Assembly: GCA_049516595.1 (NCBI GenBank)
Contig: JBEKSY010000011.1
Location: 25,063-89,062, forward strand
Origin: Anaerolineales bacterium
Lineage (GTDB): Bacteria > Chloroflexota > Anaerolineae > Anaerolineales > RBG-16-64-43
Length of the DNA: 64,000 nt
Reading direction: 5' to 3'
Made by a program: the position numbers and the translations under genes. The notes under the pieces are model-generated. The model made no database searches. It was given only the letters and a program-made list of their open reading frames with translations, and was not told the DNA's origin. Below are positions 57,375 through 63,996 of this stretch, one piece after another. Position 1 is the first letter of the stretch; the number at the start of each line of letters is the position of its first letter.

Positions 57375-58700
57375 AGCCCGCGGAAGAGACTTGCAGGCTG
57401 GGGTAGCCGAAACCCCCGTCCGAACTTGTTGAGGGGATTTCCAGCTCAAGCCGCGCGCCGGTAGGCGTGGTGCAATCCATGGAGGAACGGAAGCGCGACA
57501 AATCGCCCTTGGCGAGGCCCGGCGCGCTTGGATTCGATCCTCCCTGAGACCTTCTGCGCAATCCCCTGGCGCGGCCGGGCACGGTTGAAGTAGTCGACGT
57601 ATTCCTCGACTATGCGATGCAAGTGTCTTTCTCCGACGATTAGCAAGTGATCGAGGCAGTCTCTCCGCACACTGCCCAGGAACCGTTCGCAGACCCCTTG
57701 GCTTTTGGAGCGCGACAGGGCGTCTTCAGGGCTTCAAGGGAGCTTGCCTTGGCGACTCGTGCGAAATCGTTGCCGTACTTGCTGTCCCGATCGCGACTCA
57801 GAAAACGCGGCGCATGGCCAAAGGGCATGGCTTCGCGAAGTTGTTGTGCCACCCAGGCATCGGTCGGATGAGAGGTGCCCCGGAAGGAAACGACCCGCCG
57901 CGAGCGGGGCTCGAGGATGAAGAAGGCGTAGATCTGCCGAAAGACCAGGTTGATGACTGGAAGGAAGTGGCAGGCCCCCACACCGGTTGGGCGTGATTCC
58001 TGACGGAAGTTGACCAATTCTGAGTTGGGGCGGGGTGGGGGCGCGCCAAACGCATGTACTTCTGGATCGTCGGCCCCTGGCCTGCGGCTAGGGCAGGCTT
58101 GCGACCTGGATTCCGAGTTTCATGAGTTCGCCACGGATGCGTTCCGTGCCCCACAGGGTATTCTCCCTGGCCATCTGCTGGATCAAAGCGATGGTTTCGG
58201 AGGCTACCCTGGGGCGCCCAACCCCGTTGCGGGACTTGAACTTCGAGAACAGCCGGAAGCTTTGGCGATCCCAGCCCAGGAGGGTATCGGGCTTGAGGAT
58301 GAGGAACGTTTCCTTCCAACGGTGGGCCCGGCTGGCGAGGAGGACGACCCAGAGGCGATCGGTTTGGGTGAAGCGTGGTTTCTGGACCAGGTGCTGGAGG
58401 AGGATCAGTTGTTGGCGGAGGAGAGCATTCTCGGCGATGAATTGGGCCTTGGTGCGGGTGACATCGCGCGCTATGGCGAGAACGACGGAAACGCGGGAGG
58501 CCTTGGTCAGGTGGCGGAAAGCCTGTTCCAGTGTGGGCACTGCTGAGCAAACGGTTGGATAAATGGCTTGACAATGGAGGACACGCGGATTGATCCCTCG
58601 ACAGCCTGACAGAATCGGTCGATAGAGTACATTGCACACCCGATCCGAATCCATCGTCGGGCGGATGAGGTTCTTGGCTAGGACAGGTGGCCTTGGCTCT
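57375..58700 (-). mobile_element. Decayed IS copy A: rve (integrase-core) DDE transposase split over at least 4 frames
   Basis: The N-terminal part reads …AENALLRQQLILLQ…PRFTQTDRLWVVLL…ARENTLWGTERIRGELMKLG (ORF 58088..58912 frame). Then …TIQKYMRLARP…QNWSTSVRNHA; then …FLPVINLVFRQIYAFFILEPRSRRVV…HPTDAWVAQQLREA…RDRDSKYG; then …RRDCLDHLLIVGERHLHRIVEEYVDYFNRARP. Family is IS481/IS3-superfamily-like. The upper boundary is approximate. Confidence 0.7.
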
Positions 58701-58735: not shown

Positions 58736-58780
58736 TTGACGTCGGCATATCCAGTGATATAATATGGGTATTCTGGATAT
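58736..58780 (+). promoter_or_regulatory. Promoter plus palindromic operator of the MqsR-like/antitoxin operon
   Basis: TTGACG (58736..58741), a 16-nt spacer, then TATAAT (58758..58763). Exact 8-bp inverted repeat ATATCCAG (58747..58754) and CTGGATAT (58773..58780) brackets the -10. Confidence 0.55.
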
Positions 58781-58838
58781 CACATGATATTGGAATCGCC
58801 CATGCTGGGTGTTGGACCGGACATGACAGGAGCAGAAG

Positions 58839-59194
58839 TTGCCCGAGGCCAACAAAGAAGAGGTCCGGCGGTTCCTGCATCGCTTCAAGGGAATCGCGGG
58901 CTCCAGACACATCTACCTTGTCGACACGGACAAGACCGACCAGACACTCCTTCGCTTGGCCTCACCAGGGGCAACTGCAAGGACGAGATTCTGGCATTGT
59001 CTGTCCTAGACTACTCTTTAGGACCCCAACCTGACCTTAACCGCTCCGGTGAAGTTTGGGTGTTCGGCAAGAGCATTAGCGGACTCGAGATCTACATCAA
59101 GCTGAAGATTGTGGAGACTCCCTCATCTGAAGCTGCAGTTTGTCTGTCGTTCCACATCGCCGAGAGGCCCATGGCCTATCCGCTGAAACCCTGA
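58839..59194 (+). pseudogene. MqsR-like toxin, frameshifted
   Basis: A TTG at 58839 (after AGGAG) opens a frame reading PEANKEEVRRFLHRFKGIAGSRHIYLVDTDKTDQTLLRL. The conserved C-terminus GLTRGNCKDEILALSVLDYSLGP…EVWVFGKSISGLEIYIKLKIV…VCLSFHIAE (cf. MqsR …DFYKSM…WQDVY…YLKITV…SFKE) continues in the -1 frame from about 58958. Confidence 0.6.
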
Positions 59195-59232
59195 TCCAGC
59201 GTCAGCCTGCAAGACAAAAGAGGAGGACCGCA

Positions 59233-60234
59233 GTGAAAGGCTTCTGCCCACATTGCGAGAAGGAGCGCGATCTAACTTCGATTCAGAGCTTAAGAGAATA
59301 CACAGTCAAAGGGGAGAAGATTGCAGTACAGAGGCATGTCCTCAAGTGCCAAACCTGTGACAAGGAGTTTGATCCCCCGGATGATTCTCATGACCCCTTG
59401 GATGAGGCCTATCGCGAGTATCGAGCCCGCCATGGGATGATTCAACCGGCGGAAATCCGGCGATTCCGAAGCTCACTCGGTCTAAGCCAAAGTGATCTCG
59501 CCGGTCTGCTGGGGTGGGGGGGTGCCACTCTCAGTCGCTACGAGAACGGCGCTCTCCAAGACGACGCCCACGACAGAGCTCTCTTACTCGCTATGGATAC
59601 GGCTAACCTCCTGCGGCTCGCGGAAGCGAACCCAATTGCACTCCCTTCAGATAAACTTGGTCGCCTCATTTCGACCCTAAGGGCGCGCTTGGGGGAGGAC
59701 GAGGTGACGCTCAAAAGGCTCTACGAGGCACGGTTCGGTCAATACGAACCGGATATTTACACTGGCTACCGCAGGTTCAGTCTTGAGAGGGTCTTCAACG
59801 CGATCCTGTTCTTCTGCACAAACCTGGAAGTGGTCAAGACTAAGCTGAACAAACTCCTCTTCTACTCGGACTTCAAGCACTTCAAAGACTATACAGTCTC
59901 GATCACAGGTGCCCGGTATGCACATCTCCCCTATGGTCCTGCACCCGACGGCTACTCCTCCTTCCTGGCCATGCTGCAGGAGGGAGAGAAATCCATCGTG
60001 ACCGAGGAGCGAATGTTCAATGACCATGTCGGCGAGGTGCTGATTGCATTGCGGTCTCCTGACATCGCGGCATTTTCCTCAAGCGAGATCAAAGTCCTTG
60101 CTCTGGTGAAGGAAAGATTCGACTCCTACTCAGCGAAGCAGCTCAGCGACCTTTCTCACAAGGAGAAGGGCTACCTGGAAACCCATGATGGGGAGCTGAT
60201 CTCGTACGACCACGCAGAGTCGCTTGCTCTGTAG
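59233..60234 (+). CDS. Antitoxin: MqsA-like zinc ribbon + XRE HTH fused to a Panacea (DUF4065/SocA-like) domain
   Basis: CPHCEKERDL…KCQTCDKEF (Zn ribbon). IRRFRSSLGLSQSDLAGLLGWGGATLSRYENG (HTH). C-terminal …VKTKLNKLLFYSDFKHFKDYTVSITGARYAHLPYGPAPDGY… (DUF4065 pattern). GTG 59233 follows AGAGGAGGA. Confidence 0.8.
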   Translation: MKGFCPHCEKERDLTSIQSLREYTVKGEKIAVQRHVLKCQTCDKEFDPPDDSHDPLDEAYREYRARHGMIQPAEIRRFRSSLGLSQSDLAGLLGWGGATLSRYENGALQDDAHDRALLLAMDTANLLRLAEANPIALPSDKLGRLISTLRARLGEDEVTLKRLYEARFGQYEPDIYTGYRRFSLERVFNAILFFCTNLEVVKTKLNKLLFYSDFKHFKDYTVSITGARYAHLPYGPAPDGYSSFLAMLQEGEKSIVTEERMFNDHVGEVLIALRSPDIAAFSSSEIKVLALVKERFDSYSAKQLSDLSHKEKGYLETHDGELISYDHAESLAL

Positions 60235-60361: not shown

Positions 60362-60429
60362 GCCCGCGGAAGAGACTTGCAGGCTGGGGTAGCCGAAAAC
60401 CCCGTCCGAACTTGTTGAGGGGATTCCCA
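60362..60429. repeat. Solo ~68-nt copy of the sequence at the 3' end of IS copy A
   Basis: GCCCGCGGAAGAGACTTGCAGGCTGGGGTAGCCGAAAACCCCGTCCGAACTTGTTGAGGGGATTCCCA nearly matches 57375..57442, with 2-3 differences. Same orientation. Confidence 0.75.
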
Positions 60430-60893: not shown

Positions 60894-61331
60894 TCACCCC
60901 AGGCGCTCGGGCCATGCTACCAATCCAACTCGTTGCGCCCCGCGCCAGAGGTCCTTGTCGTAGGTGGCCAACGTCACAGCCCTCTCCAAGGCACGTTGCC
61001 AGGAGAGAGCGCTCGCCAGGTGGACAGCATCGTACCCGCGAAGATCCTGCTCCCATGCCAGAGTGTCAGATTCGGCTGTGATGGCCTCTGTCAGTTGGAT
61101 GGCTGTGAGTTCCGACCATTGCCTCCTGAACGCTCTCAGGGCAGCCTCGCCGTGCTGGCGATCAAGCGAGCCCAAACGCACGAGCTTGGCGATGGCTGCC
61201 GAGATCTCAGGGCGCGTGATCAGCGCTGTGCCGACCACGTCGGCTTGGCGGACCAGCGCTTCCACTTCTCGCGATCCCGCTTCTGCAAGATAGCGCTTGG
61301 CGAACGCACTGGAGTCAACATACAGGATCAT
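60894..61331 (-). CDS. vapC: PIN-domain toxin VapC
   Basis: MILYVDSSAFAKRYL… (N-terminal Asp), …GYDAVHLASAL…TYDKDL. ATGA overlap with the upstream antitoxin gene. Confidence 0.9.
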   Translation of the reverse strand: MILYVDSSAFAKRYLAEAGSREVEALVRQADVVGTALITRPEISAAIAKLVRLGSLDRQHGEAALRAFRRQWSELTAIQLTEAITAESDTLAWEQDLRGYDAVHLASALSWQRALERAVTLATYDKDLWRGAQRVGLVAWPERLG

Positions 61332-61603
61332 CGTCTCTCCGCGACGATGGTCTCTGCAACCGTCCTCTTGCCTCGCGCCCTGGCCACCGGCTTCGCCGGA
61401 GAGAGTCTCTTCCCGCTCCAGCGGATCAGCCCGGCCTGGTCCAGCTCCGCAAGCCGTTCTTCAAGGGTCTGACCTTGAGGAATGAGCCGTCCTACGGGTT
61501 TCCCGCGCTCCGTGACGACGATCGTCTCACCCTGCTTGACGCGCCTTAGGTACTCGCTCAGTCGCGACTTGAGTTCTCGCACTCCAACTGTCATCTCGCC
61601 CAT
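61328..61603 (-). CDS. Phd/YefM-family antitoxin
   Basis: VGVRELKSRLSEYLRRVKQGETIVVTERGKPVGRLIP is typical of the Phd/YefM N-terminal domain. Confidence 0.9.
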   Translation of the reverse strand: MGEMTVGVRELKSRLSEYLRRVKQGETIVVTERGKPVGRLIPQGQTLEERLAELDQAGLIRWSGKRLSPAKPVARARGKRTVAETIVAERR

Positions 61604-61663: not shown

Positions 61664-61699
61664 ACTCGCCGTGGTGCCGAATGACCAGGGGAGACAGCT

Positions 61700-62410
61700 G
61701 AGGTGGCCGAAAACCCCGTCTGAGCCTGATCAGGGAATTCCTGACTCGTACTGGGCGCCGGTAGTCGTGCTGTAATCTGTGGAGGACCGGAAAGGCGATG
61801 ATTCTCCCTTGCTGTGGTCCCGCTCGCTGGGATTCGATCCTCCCTGGAATTCTCTGCCCAATCCTCTGATAGGGCCGGGCACGCTTGAAGTAGTCGACGT
61901 ATTCCTGGACTAGGCGATGCCAATGTCTTTCTGCGACGATTAGCAGGGGATCGAGGCCTTCTCTCCGCACACTGTCCAGGAACCGTTCGCAGCCCCAATT
62001 GGCCTTCGGGGCGGGATAGGGCATCTTCAGGACTTCGCTGGAGCTTGCCTTGGCGACTCGTGCGAAATCGTCGCCGTCCTTGCTGTCCCGATTGCGAATG
62101 AGAAAACGCGGCGCTTGGCCAAAGGGCGTAGCTTGGCGAAGTTGCCGTGCCCCCCAGGCGTCGGTTGGGTGGGAGGTGAACCCAAACTGAACGACCCGCG
62201 GTGAGGCGAGTTCGATGATGAAGAATGCGTAGATCTGCCGGAAGAACAGGTCGATGACTGGAAGGAAGTCGTAGGCCCACACCAGTTGGGCGTGATTCCT
62301 GACGAAAGTTGACCCATTCTGACCTGGGGCGGGTAGGGGGCGTGCCAGACGGATGTACTTCTGGATCGTCGCCCCCTGGCCCCCGGCCTGCCGATCCGGG
62401 GCAGGCTGCA
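61700..62410 (-). mobile_element. Decayed IS copy B: 3' ~700 bp of the same rve transposase, 5'-truncated
   Basis: ORF 61623..62516 reads …TIQKYIRLARP…FLPVIDLFFRQIYAFFIIELASPRVV…HPTDAWGARQLRQA…RNRDSKDG…LIVAERHWHRLVQEYVDYFKRARP, collinear with copy A. Nucleotide similarity runs from about 61706 to about 62405. Confidence 0.7.
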
Positions 62411-62424
62411 AACCAGTCGGTTCG

Positions 62425-62919
62425 GGCAAAGCGGCCCTCAGGTACTTGGCCCCGTACATCTTCCGTGTCGCCCTCAGCAATCGCCTCTTGATGAAGCTCG
62501 AAAACCACCGCGTCACATTCCCCTACACCGCTTCGCAAACGGGCCAGACCAAACTCTGCACGCACCCGCGCGGGGGGCACGTTGCCCGTCCATGAGTTCT
62601 TGCATCGCTTCCTACGACATGTCCTGCCCAAAGGGTTCGTCAAGGTCCGCTGCGTCAGTGGCGGACGCAACTACCGCTACTACAGGGTCTTCCCCGTGCC
62701 GGGGCTCTTCGGCAGCCCGGCTCACCGAGCACGGCTGGCCGCCCTGAGCCAGCAGCCGCGCAGCAGCGACTCAGTGCGACCGAGATGGAGCCGCCGGTTC
62801 AGGCTACCGGGCCCGCGCTCAACCATCTGGCTTTGGACGACACCGTCCGTTGCCCCATCTGTGGTTGTCCGATGCAGGTGCGCACCCTGCCTCCCATCCA
62901 GGCCGGTTGCCCACCTTGA
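62425..62919 (+). mobile_element. IS91-family (Y2/HUH) transposase C-terminal remnant, frameshifted
   Basis: …LRYLAPYIFRVALSNRLLMKLENHRVTFPY… then, in another frame, EFLHRFLRHVLPKGFVKVR…, then RCPICGCPMQV…. This matches the IS91 C-terminal pattern (…RYL.RYTHRVAISN.RL…FRY…F..RFL.HVLPKGF.R.R.YG…CP.CG). Confidence 0.55.
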
Positions 62920-63351: not shown

Positions 63352-63651
63352 CTGATCCAGAGCTTCCATAAGCGGGCCACCGAAGACGTCTTCAACGGTG
63401 TGAATTCAGCCGCCGCGCGAAGACAGTGCCCGCAGGGGCTCTGGGCACTCGCCCGAAGGAAGCTTGACCAGCTCGACTCTGCTCAGGAGCTCAAAGATCT
63501 GGGTGTCCCGCCGGGCAACCGACTAGAGCCCCTGCGTGGGGATCGGACAGGGCAACATAGCATCCGGATCAACGAACAGTATCGGATCTGTTTCGTCTGG
63601 ACACGGCAAGGGCCTGGAGAGGTCGAGATCGTCGACTACCACATGGCGTAG
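63352..63651 (+). CDS. higB: HigB toxin (RelE/ParE superfamily)
   Basis: …PPGNRLEPLRGDRTGQHSIRINEQYRICFVW…EIVDYH. The conserved N-terminus (L)IQSFHKRATEDVFNG is in frame from 63352 but has no ATG/GTG/TTG. The ORF track starts at GTG 63400. Confidence 0.75.
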   Translation: MIQSFHKRATEDVFNGVNSAAARRQCPQGLWALARRKLDQLDSAQELKDLGVPPGNRLEPLRGDRTGQHSIRINEQYRICFVWTRQGPGEVEIVDYHMA

Positions 63652-63675
63652 GGTGCGAAGATTGGGGAGGTACAT

Positions 63676-63996
63676 ATGGTGCGCGTTCCCACACACAGAG
63701 AGCCCACCCATCCCGGTGAGATGCTGCTTGAGGAGTTCCTCAAGCCGATGGAGGTCAGCCAGCGAGAACTGGCAGACGCTCTCCACATGCCTTACCAGCG
63801 CGTCAATGAGATTGTGAACGCGCGGCGGGGAATCACTCCTGCGACGGCCTTGAGGTTGGCGAAGTACTTTGGGACCACTGAGGGCTACTGGATGAACCTC
63901 CAGCAGCGGTGGGATCTATACCGAGCGCGGCGGACGGAGGCCAGCGTTCTCAGGGACATTCGGCCACATCAGCACACGACTCCATCCCCGGGCTGA
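63676..63996 (+). CDS. higA: HigA antitoxin (XRE HTH)
   Basis: HPGEMLLEEFLKPMEVSQRELADALHMPYQRVNEIVNARRGITPATALRLAKYFGTTEGYWMNLQ. Confidence 0.9.
   Translation: MVRVPTHREPTHPGEMLLEEFLKPMEVSQRELADALHMPYQRVNEIVNARRGITPATALRLAKYFGTTEGYWMNLQQRWDLYRARRTEASVLRDIRPHQHTTPSPG

What the first reader, a model, noticed from the sequence alone, without database searches (positions are those of the whole stretch)
58839..60234. Frameshifted MqsR-like toxin paired with an intact three-domain antitoxin (Zn ribbon + HTH + Panacea/DUF4065)
- **The antitoxin:** it combines an MqsA-type N-terminus (CPHC…CQTC zinc ribbon, then XRE HTH) with a C-terminal DUF4065 'Panacea' domain (…KLNKLLFYSDFKHF…YAHLPYGPAPDGY…). 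That domain has been described as a promiscuous toxin-neutralising module.
- **The toxin:** the upstream gene has MqsR-like blocks, but its N-terminal half (from TTG 58839) and C-terminal half are in different frames. The junction is at about 58958, and adding one G to CGCTTGGCCTC restores the frame.
- **Why it matters:** a dead toxin with a conserved, apparently expressed antitoxin is a candidate for an orphan 'anti-addiction' or regulator role. I do not recognise the ZnR-HTH-Panacea architecture as a described one.
Basis: partly seen in the sequence, partly recalled or inferred. Interest (0 to 1): 0.65.

Follow-up and report, generated by a model that had tools for sequence, protein, structure and literature searches.

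The report
Broken MqsR toxin, intact MqsA-Panacea antitoxin
This is a toxin-antitoxin gene pair of a type already published and tested, in which a one-base deletion has killed the toxin gene while the three-domain antitoxin and its promoter remain intact, which is an ordinary stage in the decay of such modules.

Summary
Window 58839-59194 is an MqsR-like RNase toxin gene with a 1-nt deletion in codon 39, at 58953/58954. It is followed by an intact 333-aa antitoxin (59233-60234) with an MqsA-type zinc-binding domain, an HTH and a Panacea (PF13274) domain.

The frameshift is real. The same allele is 100% identical in contigs from several separately listed samples and three assembly sources. Two sister-lineage contigs (93% nt) and a third relative have an intact codon there.

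The novelty claim fails. The ZBD-HTH-Panacea antitoxin paired with MqsR was dissected experimentally in Bacillus fungorum (Ernits et al. 2023, PMC10440598), and MqsR-like was the commonest recognised toxin domain next to Panacea antitoxins (Kurata et al. 2022). More than 1300 database homologs exist, and all 120 listed share the architecture.

New here:
- In 78 species-level loci with an intact antitoxin, the toxin is broken or absent in about 15.
- A palindrome, ATATC-N4-GATAT, usually two copies 29-30 bp apart, lies upstream of the toxin in 50 of 76 loci and is intact in the window.
- Between the window and its sister lineage, antitoxin dN/dS is 0.11 and toxin dN/dS is about 0.45.

Best reading: routine erosion of a known module. 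Selected retention of the orphan antitoxin is possible but untested.

The parts
58736..58763 (+). Sigma-70-type promoter: TTGACG, 16-nt spacer, TATAAT with an extended -10 TG
   Evidence: It matches 11 of 12 consensus positions. The -35 and -10 hexamers are conserved in L009, and the -35 also in L010.
58747..58760 (.). Operator palindrome 1, ATATC-CAGT-GATAT, overlapping the spacer and the -10 element
   Evidence: two matches in the window against 0 expected; the motif occurs upstream of the toxin in 50 of 76 family loci and in 1 of 76 downstream control regions.
58777..58790 (.). Operator palindrome 2, ATATC-ACAT-GATAT, 30 bp after the first
   Evidence: family spacing is 29-30 bp. In L009 the arms are conserved and the spacer differs.
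58828..58832 (+). Shine-Dalgarno sequence AGGAG of the toxin gene, 6 nt before TTG 58839
   Evidence: Sequence. Homologs start with MPE at this position.
58839..59009 (+). ORF actually open from the toxin start. It encodes 38 native MqsR-like residues, then 18 out-of-frame residues, then TAG.
   Evidence: HMM positions 2-40.
58953..58954 (+). Site of the 1-nt deletion in codon 39 (ancestral CGG or CAG is now C-G)
   Evidence: DNA alignment A1. L092 also has CGG.
58955..59194 (+). Out-of-frame C-terminal 79 codons of the toxin, still free of stops. They carry the invariant YIKLK motif and the nearly invariant SFH motif.
   Evidence: HMM positions 38-117; AF2 model and MqsR fold match.
59220..59226 (+). 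Shine-Dalgarno sequence GAGGAGG of the antitoxin, 6 nt before GTG 59233
   Evidence: Sequence. Conserved in L009 and L010.
59233..59427 (+). Antitoxin residues 1-65: MqsA-type zinc-binding domain (C5, C8, C39, C42). By analogy this is the toxin-neutralising part.
   Evidence: TIGR03830 and PF15731; cysteines invariant; AF2 pLDDT about 90 and Foldseek match to 3gn5 MqsA, E 1.7e-5. Function taken from PMC10440598.
59428..59637 (+). Antitoxin residues 66-135: XRE-type HTH, the presumed dimerisation and DNA-binding domain
   Evidence: HTH_31 and HTH_3; fold matches to the MqsA C-terminal domain and the HigA2 HTH.
59638..59817 (+). Antitoxin residues 136-195: helical linker region
   Evidence: AF2 secondary structure. 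It is no better conserved than the other antitoxin segments in the identity-to-consensus comparison.
59818..60234 (+). Antitoxin residues 196-333 plus the stop codon: Panacea (DUF4065 / SocA_Panacea) domain
   Evidence: PF13274, E 4.9e-20, residues 205-312. dN/dS 0.07 against the sister lineage.

Best explanation
This is a chromosomal type II toxin-antitoxin module of the published MqsR:PanA kind.

In intact relatives:
- One promoter drives a small MqsR-like (RelE-fold) RNase toxin followed by an antitoxin.
- The antitoxin's N-terminal zinc-binding domain binds and neutralises the toxin.
- Its HTH dimer represses the operon at two ATATC-N4-GATAT palindromes.
- The role of its C-terminal Panacea domain is not established; a sensor role has been proposed.

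In this lineage:
- A single-base deletion in toxin codon 39 truncates the product to 56 residues.
- That product lacks the whole beta-sheet with the YIKLK and SFH motifs, so the toxin is dead.
- The antitoxin keeps its promoter, operators, ribosome-binding site and full ORF, so it is probably still made. It would then act only as an autorepressor with nothing to neutralise.

This is an early step in the usual erosion of chromosomal TA modules: the toxin can be lost safely, whereas losing the antitoxin first would be lethal.

Shown here: domain content, the frameshift and its reproducibility, the conserved operator motif, and purifying selection on the antitoxin.

Inferred: toxin activity before the lesion, neutralisation by the ZBD, HTH binding to the palindrome, and current expression.
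For: - Domains.
- Toxin family. The repaired protein aligns end to end with 24 homologs. Of the 25 aligned sequences, 14 hit PF15723 at E<=0.01, best 3.7e-6. hhalign to E. coli MqsR gives E 0.0013, aligning YIKLK with VYLKI and SFH with SFK. The AF2 model has pLDDT 92.6, and its best TM match is MqsR 3hi2_B, TM 0.66 on target length, probability 0.98.
- Lesion: a 1-nt gap relative to L009, L010 and L092. The same allele is in 13 contigs; the eight fetched come from eight listed samples or assemblies (JGI, ENA, Logan). No intact copy closer than 90% aa was found among 5.8 billion clusters.
- Published precedent and mechanism: PMC10440598, PMC8832971.
- Gene pairing: an MqsR-like ORF or remnant lies upstream of the antitoxin in 77 of 80 species loci, although in L078 it sits about 670 nt away.
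- Operator.
- Selection: antitoxin dN/dS 0.11 (7 nonsynonymous, 18 synonymous) and toxin 0.45-0.48 (11-12 nonsynonymous, 7-8 synonymous); Fisher p 0.04-0.06.
- Erosion is common. Toxin lesions or absence occur in about 15 of 78 loci in this family. Most non-functional predicted TAs in Photorhabdus have truncated toxins (PMC13617665).
- Horizontal origin: GC is 55% in the module against 64% in the window, and it sits among IS remnants and two other TA pairs.
Against: - The window toxin's own Pfam match is sub-threshold (14 bits against 26.2), and the Foldseek E-values are weak (0.07-0.1).
- The residue aligned with E. coli MqsR K96 is His in this family.
- No expression data or read-level data were available.
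- The several samples may share one clonal population, and some ENA and Logan contigs may be re-assemblies of the same reads.
- dN/dS is averaged over both lineages, so it cannot show selection since the frameshift.
- Nothing here shows that the ancestral toxin was toxic. Kurata et al. report one MqsR:PanA pair whose antitoxin did not neutralise the toxin in E. coli.
Confidence: 0.8

Rival explanations
1. The orphan antitoxin is kept by selection for a job that does not need its own toxin. It could neutralise MqsR toxins arriving on mobile elements or encoded elsewhere in the genome (anti-addiction or cross-immunity). Alternatively it could act as a Panacea-sensing transcription factor.
For: - All 14 antitoxins whose toxin is broken or gone (L067 left aside) are full length. 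Their profile scores (medians 471 and 494) are as high as those with an intact toxin (474). The zinc cysteines are kept in 13 of the 14.
- Three loci (L014, L015, L047) keep no trace of a toxin, and L071 keeps only a few codons together with the operator.
- In the window clade the antitoxin has dN/dS 0.11, and the Panacea part 0.07.
- Promoter and operators are intact.
Against: - The 80 loci were chosen as the best antitoxin matches, so decayed antitoxins were excluded by design.
- The window toxin has one lesion only and no secondary stops in 79 downstream codons, so the event is recent. Antitoxin intactness therefore needs no selection.
- No second MqsR-like gene is present in the 64-kb window.
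- No family relative was found in 2.9 million viral contigs.
- The palindrome occurs nowhere else in the window.
Confidence: 0.15
2. The frameshift is a sequencing or assembly error, and the toxin is intact in the organism.
For: Metagenome assemblies can carry indels. One relative (L010, named contig_62926) is full of indels in this and neighbouring genes.
Against: - An identical allele appears in the eight contigs fetched (of 13 that carry it) from JGI, ENA and Logan assemblies of several samples, at 99.9-100% identity over 1.8-5.5 kb.
- The site (CTTC|GCTT) is not a homopolymer run.
- No intact copy of this lineage is in the protein collection.
Confidence: 0.03
3. The toxin is still made, either by programmed -1 ribosomal frameshifting or as the 130-136-aa frame-2 ORF (ATG 58784 or 58802) carrying a new N-terminus.
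For: The frame-2 ORF is open from 58784 to 59194 and contains the catalytic half. Gene callers report it as a 130-aa or 136-aa protein.
Against: - By my reading of the sequence, there is no X XXY YYZ slippery heptamer near 58953 and no long A or T run.
- The intact sister lineages need no frameshift.
- ATG 58784 and 58802 have no Shine-Dalgarno sequence.
- The substituted 51 residues are Gly/Pro/Arg-rich. They replace helices 1-2 and strand 1, which are part of the predicted fold.
Confidence: 0.02

Closest known systems
Bacillus fungorum MqsR:PanA (Ernits et al. 2023, PNAS, PMC10440598)
   Same: - Same gene order, with the toxin first.
- The toxin is MqsR-like.
- The antitoxin has the ZBD-HTH-Panacea domain order.
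- A Bacillota member of the same antitoxin family was recovered here at 48% identity (L048).
   Different: - The window's toxin is a pseudogene.
- Neutralisation by the ZBD was shown there and is only inferred here.
- I did not compare the window's sequences directly with the B. fungorum proteins.
Escherichia coli MqsR/MqsA (PDB 3hi2, 3gn5)
   Same: - The toxin comes before the antitoxin.
- The antitoxin has a four-cysteine zinc domain followed by an HTH (Foldseek E 1.7e-5, 26% identity).
- The toxin fold is closest by TM-score to MqsR.
- Both have two palindromic operators in the promoter (for E. coli this is from my own knowledge).
   Different: - E. coli MqsA has no Panacea domain and is 131 aa, against 333 aa here.
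- The toxin is 118 aa with a longer N-terminal helix, and it has His where E. coli has K96.
- The operator sequence differs: ATATC-N4-GATAT here, an ACCT...AGGT type in E. coli (from my own knowledge).
PanA/PanT Panacea-domain TA systems (Kurata et al. 2022, PNAS, PMC8832971)
   Same: - The antitoxin carries PF13274.
- MqsR-like was the commonest recognised partner toxin domain.
- N-terminal HTH extensions are frequent.
   Different: In many PanAs the Panacea domain itself neutralises the toxin. In the ZBD-containing subtype it does not.
Caulobacter SocA/SocB (type VI TA)
   Same: They share the Panacea (DUF4065) domain.
   Different: - The SocA equivalog model is far below its cutoff (15.6 bits against 190).
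- There is no SocB-like toxin.
- SocA works as a ClpXP adaptor.
Eroded chromosomal TA loci and orphan antitoxins (e.g. Belot et al. 2026, PMC13617665)
   Same: The toxin ORF is inactivated while the antitoxin is still intact, and the module sits in a small island with other TA pairs and IS remnants.
   Different: That study covers Photorhabdus and other TA families. Here the same pattern is shown for the MqsR:PanA family across phyla.

Membership tests
MqsA-family antitoxin (TIGR03830 / PF15731) | Sequence match above the curated cutoff | tested here: met
   TIGR03830 scores 85.9 bits against 61.8, and PF15731 scores 38.2 against 30.
MqsA-family antitoxin (TIGR03830 / PF15731) | N-terminal CxxC...CxxC zinc ribbon followed by an XRE HTH | tested here: met
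   C5, C8, C39 and C42 are invariant in the 29-sequence alignment. Across 81 sequences C5, C8 and C39 are kept in all and C42 in 80. HTH_31 and HTH_3 hits. Foldseek match to 3gn5 MqsA, E 1.7e-5.
PanA (Panacea-domain antitoxin, PF13274) | Panacea/DUF4065 domain above the Pfam gathering score | tested here: met
   73 bits against 25.7, residues 205-312, profile positions 1-110 of 113.
PanA (Panacea-domain antitoxin, PF13274) | Encoded next to a toxin gene in a conserved two-gene arrangement | tested here: met
   An MqsR-like ORF or remnant lies upstream of the antitoxin in 77 of 80 species loci, directly adjacent in nearly all.
MqsR:PanA subtype with ZBD-HTH-Panacea (Ernits 2023) | Domain order ZBD, HTH, Panacea in one polypeptide | tested here: met
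   All 120 listed homologs share it.
MqsR:PanA subtype with ZBD-HTH-Panacea (Ernits 2023) | The ZBD alone neutralises the toxin, and Panacea is dispensable for neutralisation | not testable with these tools
   This needs co-expression assays. It has been shown only for B. fungorum.
MqsR toxin (PF15723) | Sequence match above the Pfam gathering score | tested here: not met
   The repaired window protein scores 14 bits against 26.2. At family level, 14 of the 25 aligned sequences hit at E<=0.01, best 3.7e-6, and two homologs carry precomputed PF15723 hits.
MqsR toxin (PF15723) | RelE-like alpha/beta fold superposable on MqsR | tested here: met
   AF2 pLDDT is 92.6. The best TM match is 3hi2_B MqsR: TM 0.55 on query length and 0.66 on target length, rmsd 3.6 A over 95 columns, probability 0.98, though E is only 0.097.
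MqsR toxin (PF15723) | Catalytic residues equivalent to E. coli Y81 and K96 | tested here: inconclusive
   hhalign pairs the invariant Y86 (YIKLK) with Y81, and the nearly invariant H106 (SFH) with K96. Tyr is kept and Lys is replaced by His. The E. coli residue roles come from my own knowledge.
MqsR toxin (PF15723) | mRNA-cleaving toxicity | not testable with these tools
   This needs expression of the repaired gene.
Functional type II TA module | Intact toxin ORF | tested here: not met
   A 1-nt deletion in codon 39 leads to a 56-aa product.
Functional type II TA module | Autoregulated promoter with operator palindromes | tested here: inconclusive
   The promoter matches 11 of 12 positions. 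Two family-conserved palindromes overlap it. Binding was not tested.
SocA (type VI antitoxin, NF047745) | Match to the SocA equivalog model | tested here: not met
   15.6 bits against a cutoff of 190.

The most novel reading that the evidence does not exclude
ZBD-HTH-Panacea antitoxins may repeatedly outlive their MqsR toxins because they have a toxin-independent, selected function. That function could be immunity against incoming MqsR-carrying elements, or regulation by a Panacea domain that senses a signal. On this reading the window shows the first step of that transition, rather than a gene simply waiting to decay.
Probability: 0.15. Interest if true: 0.5.

Novelty: new member of a known kind. 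Interest (0 to 1): 0.2.

Why it matters
For the window itself it matters little. It is a decaying copy of a published TA type, already named by NCBI as an MqsA-family antitoxin.

Three by-products may interest TA specialists:
- A candidate operator consensus for the MqsR:PanA family, ATATCATATGATAT, typically two sites 29-30 bp apart and conserved across phyla. This makes HTH binding directly testable.
- An estimate that roughly one in five intact antitoxins of this family sits beside a dead or missing toxin. This gives natural material for asking what the Panacea domain does when there is nothing to neutralise.
- A natural allele pair, frameshifted here and intact in sister lineages at 93% nt, that could be used for toxicity tests.

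Tried and rejected
- Direct Pfam and NCBIfam assignment of the window toxin was sub-threshold or empty. I therefore relied on family-level hits, hhalign and fold comparison.
- A profile search of the toxin family against PDB sequences gave only RelE3 at E 0.75, which is uninformative.
- The PADLOC defence models gave no meaningful hit for either protein: only weak HTH-level RmrA matches, and nothing for the toxin. I dropped the idea of filing it as a known phage-defence system such as MqsRAC.
- A viral-contig scan found no relative, so there is no sign that the family is phage-borne.
- L010 at first looked like an independent second inactivation, with both toxin and antitoxin fragmented. The whole contig shows 72 gap openings over 5.4 kb and fragmented neighbouring genes, and its name suggests a long-read assembly. 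I treated it as unreliable except at the frameshift site, where it is intact.
- I considered programmed frameshifting or transcriptional slippage and rejected both, because I saw no slippery motif or homopolymer at the site and the sister lineages are in frame.
- The slightly lower ZBD conservation in the four toxin-less antitoxins (0.56 against 0.64 identity to consensus) rests on too few loci to interpret.
- I ran no further search on identifying the organism. The identical antitoxin is recorded from an Anaerolineales MAG.
Full report
**What is in the sequence**

Window 58839-60234 holds two co-oriented genes downstream of a strong promoter-like site.

The second gene runs from GTG 59233 to the stop at 60234 and encodes 333 aa. 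GAGGAGG sits 6 nt upstream of its start. Its matches are:
- NCBIfam TIGR03830, 'type II TA system antitoxin MqsA family', 85.9 bits against a cutoff of 61.8.
- Pfam MqsA_antitoxin, HTH_31 and HTH_3 in the N-terminal half.
- PF13274 SocA_Panacea at residues 205-312, 73 bits against a cutoff of 25.7.

The four zinc cysteines are invariant in the 29-sequence family alignment; across 81 family sequences only C42 changes, to Ser in one. An AlphaFold model (mean pLDDT 78) shows four parts: a beta-rich N-terminal domain, an HTH bundle, a helical linker and a mixed alpha/beta C-terminal domain. Its best PDB match is full-length E. coli MqsA, 3gn5, E 1.7e-5. The three-domain antitoxin is therefore confirmed.

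**The toxin and its lesion**

- The toxin starts at TTG 58839, with AGGAG 6 nt upstream. Frame 0 encodes 56 residues and stops at 59007-59009.
- The remaining homology lies in another frame and ends at TGA 59192-59194.
- A family HMM hits the two frames at profile positions 2-40 and 38-117.
- DNA alignment with relatives fixes the lesion exactly. L009 and L092 (93% nt identity) read ...ATT CGG CTT GGC CTC..., L010 reads ...CTT CAG CTT GGC..., and the window reads ...CTT C-G CTT GGC.... One base of codon 39 is missing, between 58953 and 58954.
- The repaired 118-aa sequence aligns end to end with 24 homologs. Y86-I-K-L-K is invariant and S104-F-H is nearly invariant.

**Is the frameshift real?**

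- The exact frame-2 product is carried by 13 contigs. The eight I fetched come from four JGI samples, three ENA assemblies and one Logan run, and are 99.9-100% identical to the window over 1.8-5.5 kb.
- Another 11 contigs carry a shorter gene call from the same cluster, a 44-aa C-terminal fragment identical to the window's toxin sequence.
- The site is not a homopolymer.
- The closest intact toxin in a collection of 5.8 billion clusters is only 90% identical and belongs to a sister lineage.
- I take the deletion as a true allele, apparently fixed in this population. Caveat: some of these assemblies may reuse the same reads, and I could not look at reads.

**Is the toxin MqsR-like?**

The window protein's own Pfam match is below threshold (14 bits against 26.2). 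The assignment rests on converging but individually modest evidence:
- Of the 25 aligned family sequences, 14 hit PF15723 at E<=0.01, best 3.7e-6.
- One homolog is named an MqsR-family toxin by NCBI.
- hhalign against E. coli MqsR gives E 0.0013. It pairs LGL with LGL, LSxxDY with LSESDF, YIKLK with VYLKI, and SFH with SFK.
- A confident AlphaFold model (pLDDT 92.6) has MqsR (3hi2_B) as its best TM-score match: TM 0.66 on target length, probability 0.98, Foldseek E only 0.097. Other RelE/ParE toxins are next in the list.
- The partner is an MqsA-type antitoxin, and the gene order is the unusual toxin-first order of mqsRA.

The residue aligned with the catalytic Lys96 of E. coli MqsR is His in this family. 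Identity of the catalytic site is therefore only partly met.

**Comparison with the literature**

It has been described.
- Ernits et al. 2023 (PMC10440598) validated B. fungorum MqsR:PanA. [quoted passage not shown]
- In that system the ZBD alone or ZBD-HTH neutralised the toxin, while Panacea alone or HTH-Panacea did not. The authors favour a sensory role for Panacea.
- Kurata et al. 2022 (PMC8832971) found MqsR-like to be the most frequent recognised toxin domain next to PanA (n = 90) and found HTH extensions in 343 PanAs. They cite a 2013 chapter that had already noted DUF4065 in an alternative MqsR antitoxin.
- In the database search the window antitoxin has more than 1300 homologs. All 120 listed are about 330 aa with the same domains.
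- The identical protein is NCBI MGA2820227.1 from an Anaerolineales MAG, named an MqsA-family antitoxin.

**Survey of the family**

I fetched 80 species-representative genomic loci from Chloroflexota, Thermodesulfobacteriota, Nitrospirota, Gammaproteobacteria, Bacillota and other phyla. All 80 antitoxins are single full-length ORFs. That was partly guaranteed, because the loci were chosen as the best matches.

Toxin state upstream:
- 2 loci are cut by contig ends, leaving 78 informative.
- 63 are intact.
- 4 have frameshifts (L023, L046, L059, L062).
- 2 have early in-frame stops (L017, L049).
- 1 has a late stop (L067), which is ambiguous.
- 1 has a 1.2-kb insertion carrying a 409-aa transposase-like ORF inside the YIKLK motif (L041).
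- 4 have deletions (L069, L071, L086, L089).
- 3 have no trace of a toxin (L014, L015, L047).

About 15 of 78 (19%) therefore have a dead or missing toxin beside an intact antitoxin. These antitoxins score as well against the family profile as the rest (medians 471 and 494 against 474), and they keep the zinc cysteines in all but one case. The window's state is a recurrent one.

This fits TA erosion in general. In Photorhabdus, most non-functional predicted TA systems have truncated toxin ORFs, and pseudogenisation is frequent (PMC13617665).

**Regulation**

- The promoter is TTGACG, 16 nt, TATAAT with an upstream TG, at 58736-58763.
- It is overlapped by two palindromes, ATATC-N4-GATAT, at 58747-58760 and 58777-58790. 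None is expected by chance in the 64-kb window, and there are no other copies.
- In L009 the arms are conserved while the spacers differ.
- Across the family, the motif (at most one mismatch) lies within 200 nt upstream of the toxin start in 50 of 76 loci, against 1 of 76 in a size-matched downstream control. Exact matches are 28 against 0.
- When two sites are present they are 29-30 bp apart in 15 of the 18 spacings measured. The commonest form is ATATCATATGATAT.
- I infer that this is the HTH operator and that autoregulation is intact in the window. Binding was not tested. I did not find this motif in the papers I read, but I did not search for it specifically.

**Selection**

- Between the window and the sister lineage (L091), the antitoxin differs at 7 nonsynonymous and 18 synonymous sites. 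This gives dN/dS 0.11 overall and 0.07 in the Panacea part.
- The toxin differs at 11-12 nonsynonymous and 7-8 synonymous sites, giving dN/dS 0.45-0.48. Fisher p is 0.04-0.06.
- The antitoxin has been under clear purifying selection over this divergence, and the toxin much less so.
- These figures average both lineages, so they cannot isolate the time since the frameshift.
- The 79 codons downstream of the lesion contain no further stops, so the lesion is probably recent.
- Several of the toxin's non-conservative differences lie on the sister lineage, whose ORF is intact. They include Y59H at a nearly invariant column, judged by comparison with the family consensus.

**Context**

- The module has 55% GC in a 64% GC window.
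- Upstream are uvrB, moaA and a SIMPL-family gene.
- The module is flanked by two decayed copies of an integrase-type transposase (57397-58600 and 61697-62700, minus strand, 80-88% identical to each other, weak rve and HTH_32 hits) and by a 68-nt repeat (57376, 60362, 61676).
- It is followed by vapBC (60894-61603) and higBA (63400-63996).
- This looks like a small horizontally acquired TA and IS island.
- No second MqsR-like gene is present in the window.
- No relatives were found in viral contigs, and there were no meaningful PADLOC hits.

**Verdict**

The module belongs to a published, experimentally dissected type and is undergoing ordinary erosion.

The remaining open point is whether orphan ZBD-HTH-Panacea antitoxins are kept by selection, and what the Panacea domain does. 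The data here do not exclude this and do not demonstrate it. I give that reading about 15%.

Interest is low for the locus itself. The family-level by-products (the operator motif and the frequency of toxin loss) add modest value.

Noticed in passing
window 58747-58760 and 58777-58790; loci L012-L090 upstream of the toxin genes: A palindrome, ATATC-N4-GATAT (commonest form ATATCATATGATAT), is conserved upstream of MqsR:PanA operons across phyla. It occurs in 50 of 76 loci at one mismatch or fewer, against 1 of 76 in control regions. Where two copies are present they are usually 29-30 bp apart. It is a candidate family operator and differs from the E. coli MqsA site.
   Followed up: yes
loci L014, L015, L017, L023, L041, L046, L047, L049, L059, L062, L067, L069, L071, L086, L089: About 15 of 78 species-level loci have a full-length antitoxin beside a toxin that is frameshifted, nonsense-mutated, deleted, IS-interrupted (L041, inside the YIKLK motif) or entirely absent. 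The selection of loci was biased towards intact antitoxins.
   Followed up: partly
window 57397-58600 (-) and 61697-62700 (-); 68-nt repeats at 57376-57443, 60362-60429 and 61676-61743: Two decayed, multiply frameshifted copies of an integrase-type transposase (80-88% nt identical to each other, weak rve and HTH_32 hits) lie either side of the region. A 68-nt repeat, 97% identical between two of its copies, brackets the transposase remnant plus the mqsR-panA module. This may be a footprint of how the module arrived or was rearranged.
   Followed up: partly
window 60894-61603 (-) and 63400-63996 (+): Two further, apparently intact TA pairs lie next door: a vapBC-type pair (PIN toxin with Phd/YefM antitoxin) and a higBA-type pair (HigB-like toxin with HTH_3 antitoxin). 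The region is a small TA island with lower GC (about 55-60% against 64%).
   Followed up: partly
window 59872-59952 (antitoxin residues 214-240): The most conserved stretch of the antitoxin (KLNKLLFYSDFKHF...ITGARYAHLPYGPAP, many invariant columns) falls largely in the only long low-confidence segment of the AlphaFold model (pLDDT 27-50). It may be a conserved loop or binding surface of the Panacea domain.
   Followed up: no
L009 757-1110 and L092 (sister-lineage toxins): The 'intact' sister-lineage toxin carries non-conservative changes at conserved positions: Y59H at a nearly invariant column, plus R23G, N46H and S70F. Its antitoxin is 98% identical to the window's. The toxin may be attenuated in that lineage too.
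   Followed up: partly
L010 (ena:ERZ25039512:contig_62926), whole locus: A 94% identical relative has 72 gap openings over 5.4 kb, and both TA genes and their neighbours are fragmented. This is probably long-read assembly error rather than biology. At the window's frameshift site it is in frame.
   Followed up: partly
window 58784-59194 (+): Gene callers in public collections report the frame-2 ORF as a 130-aa or 136-aa 'protein' with a Gly/Pro/Arg-rich N-terminus, or as a 44-aa fragment. JGI calls the antitoxin in some contigs as a 213-aa 'phage-associated protein' starting at an internal Met. These are annotation artefacts of the frameshift and of start-codon choice.
   Followed up: yes
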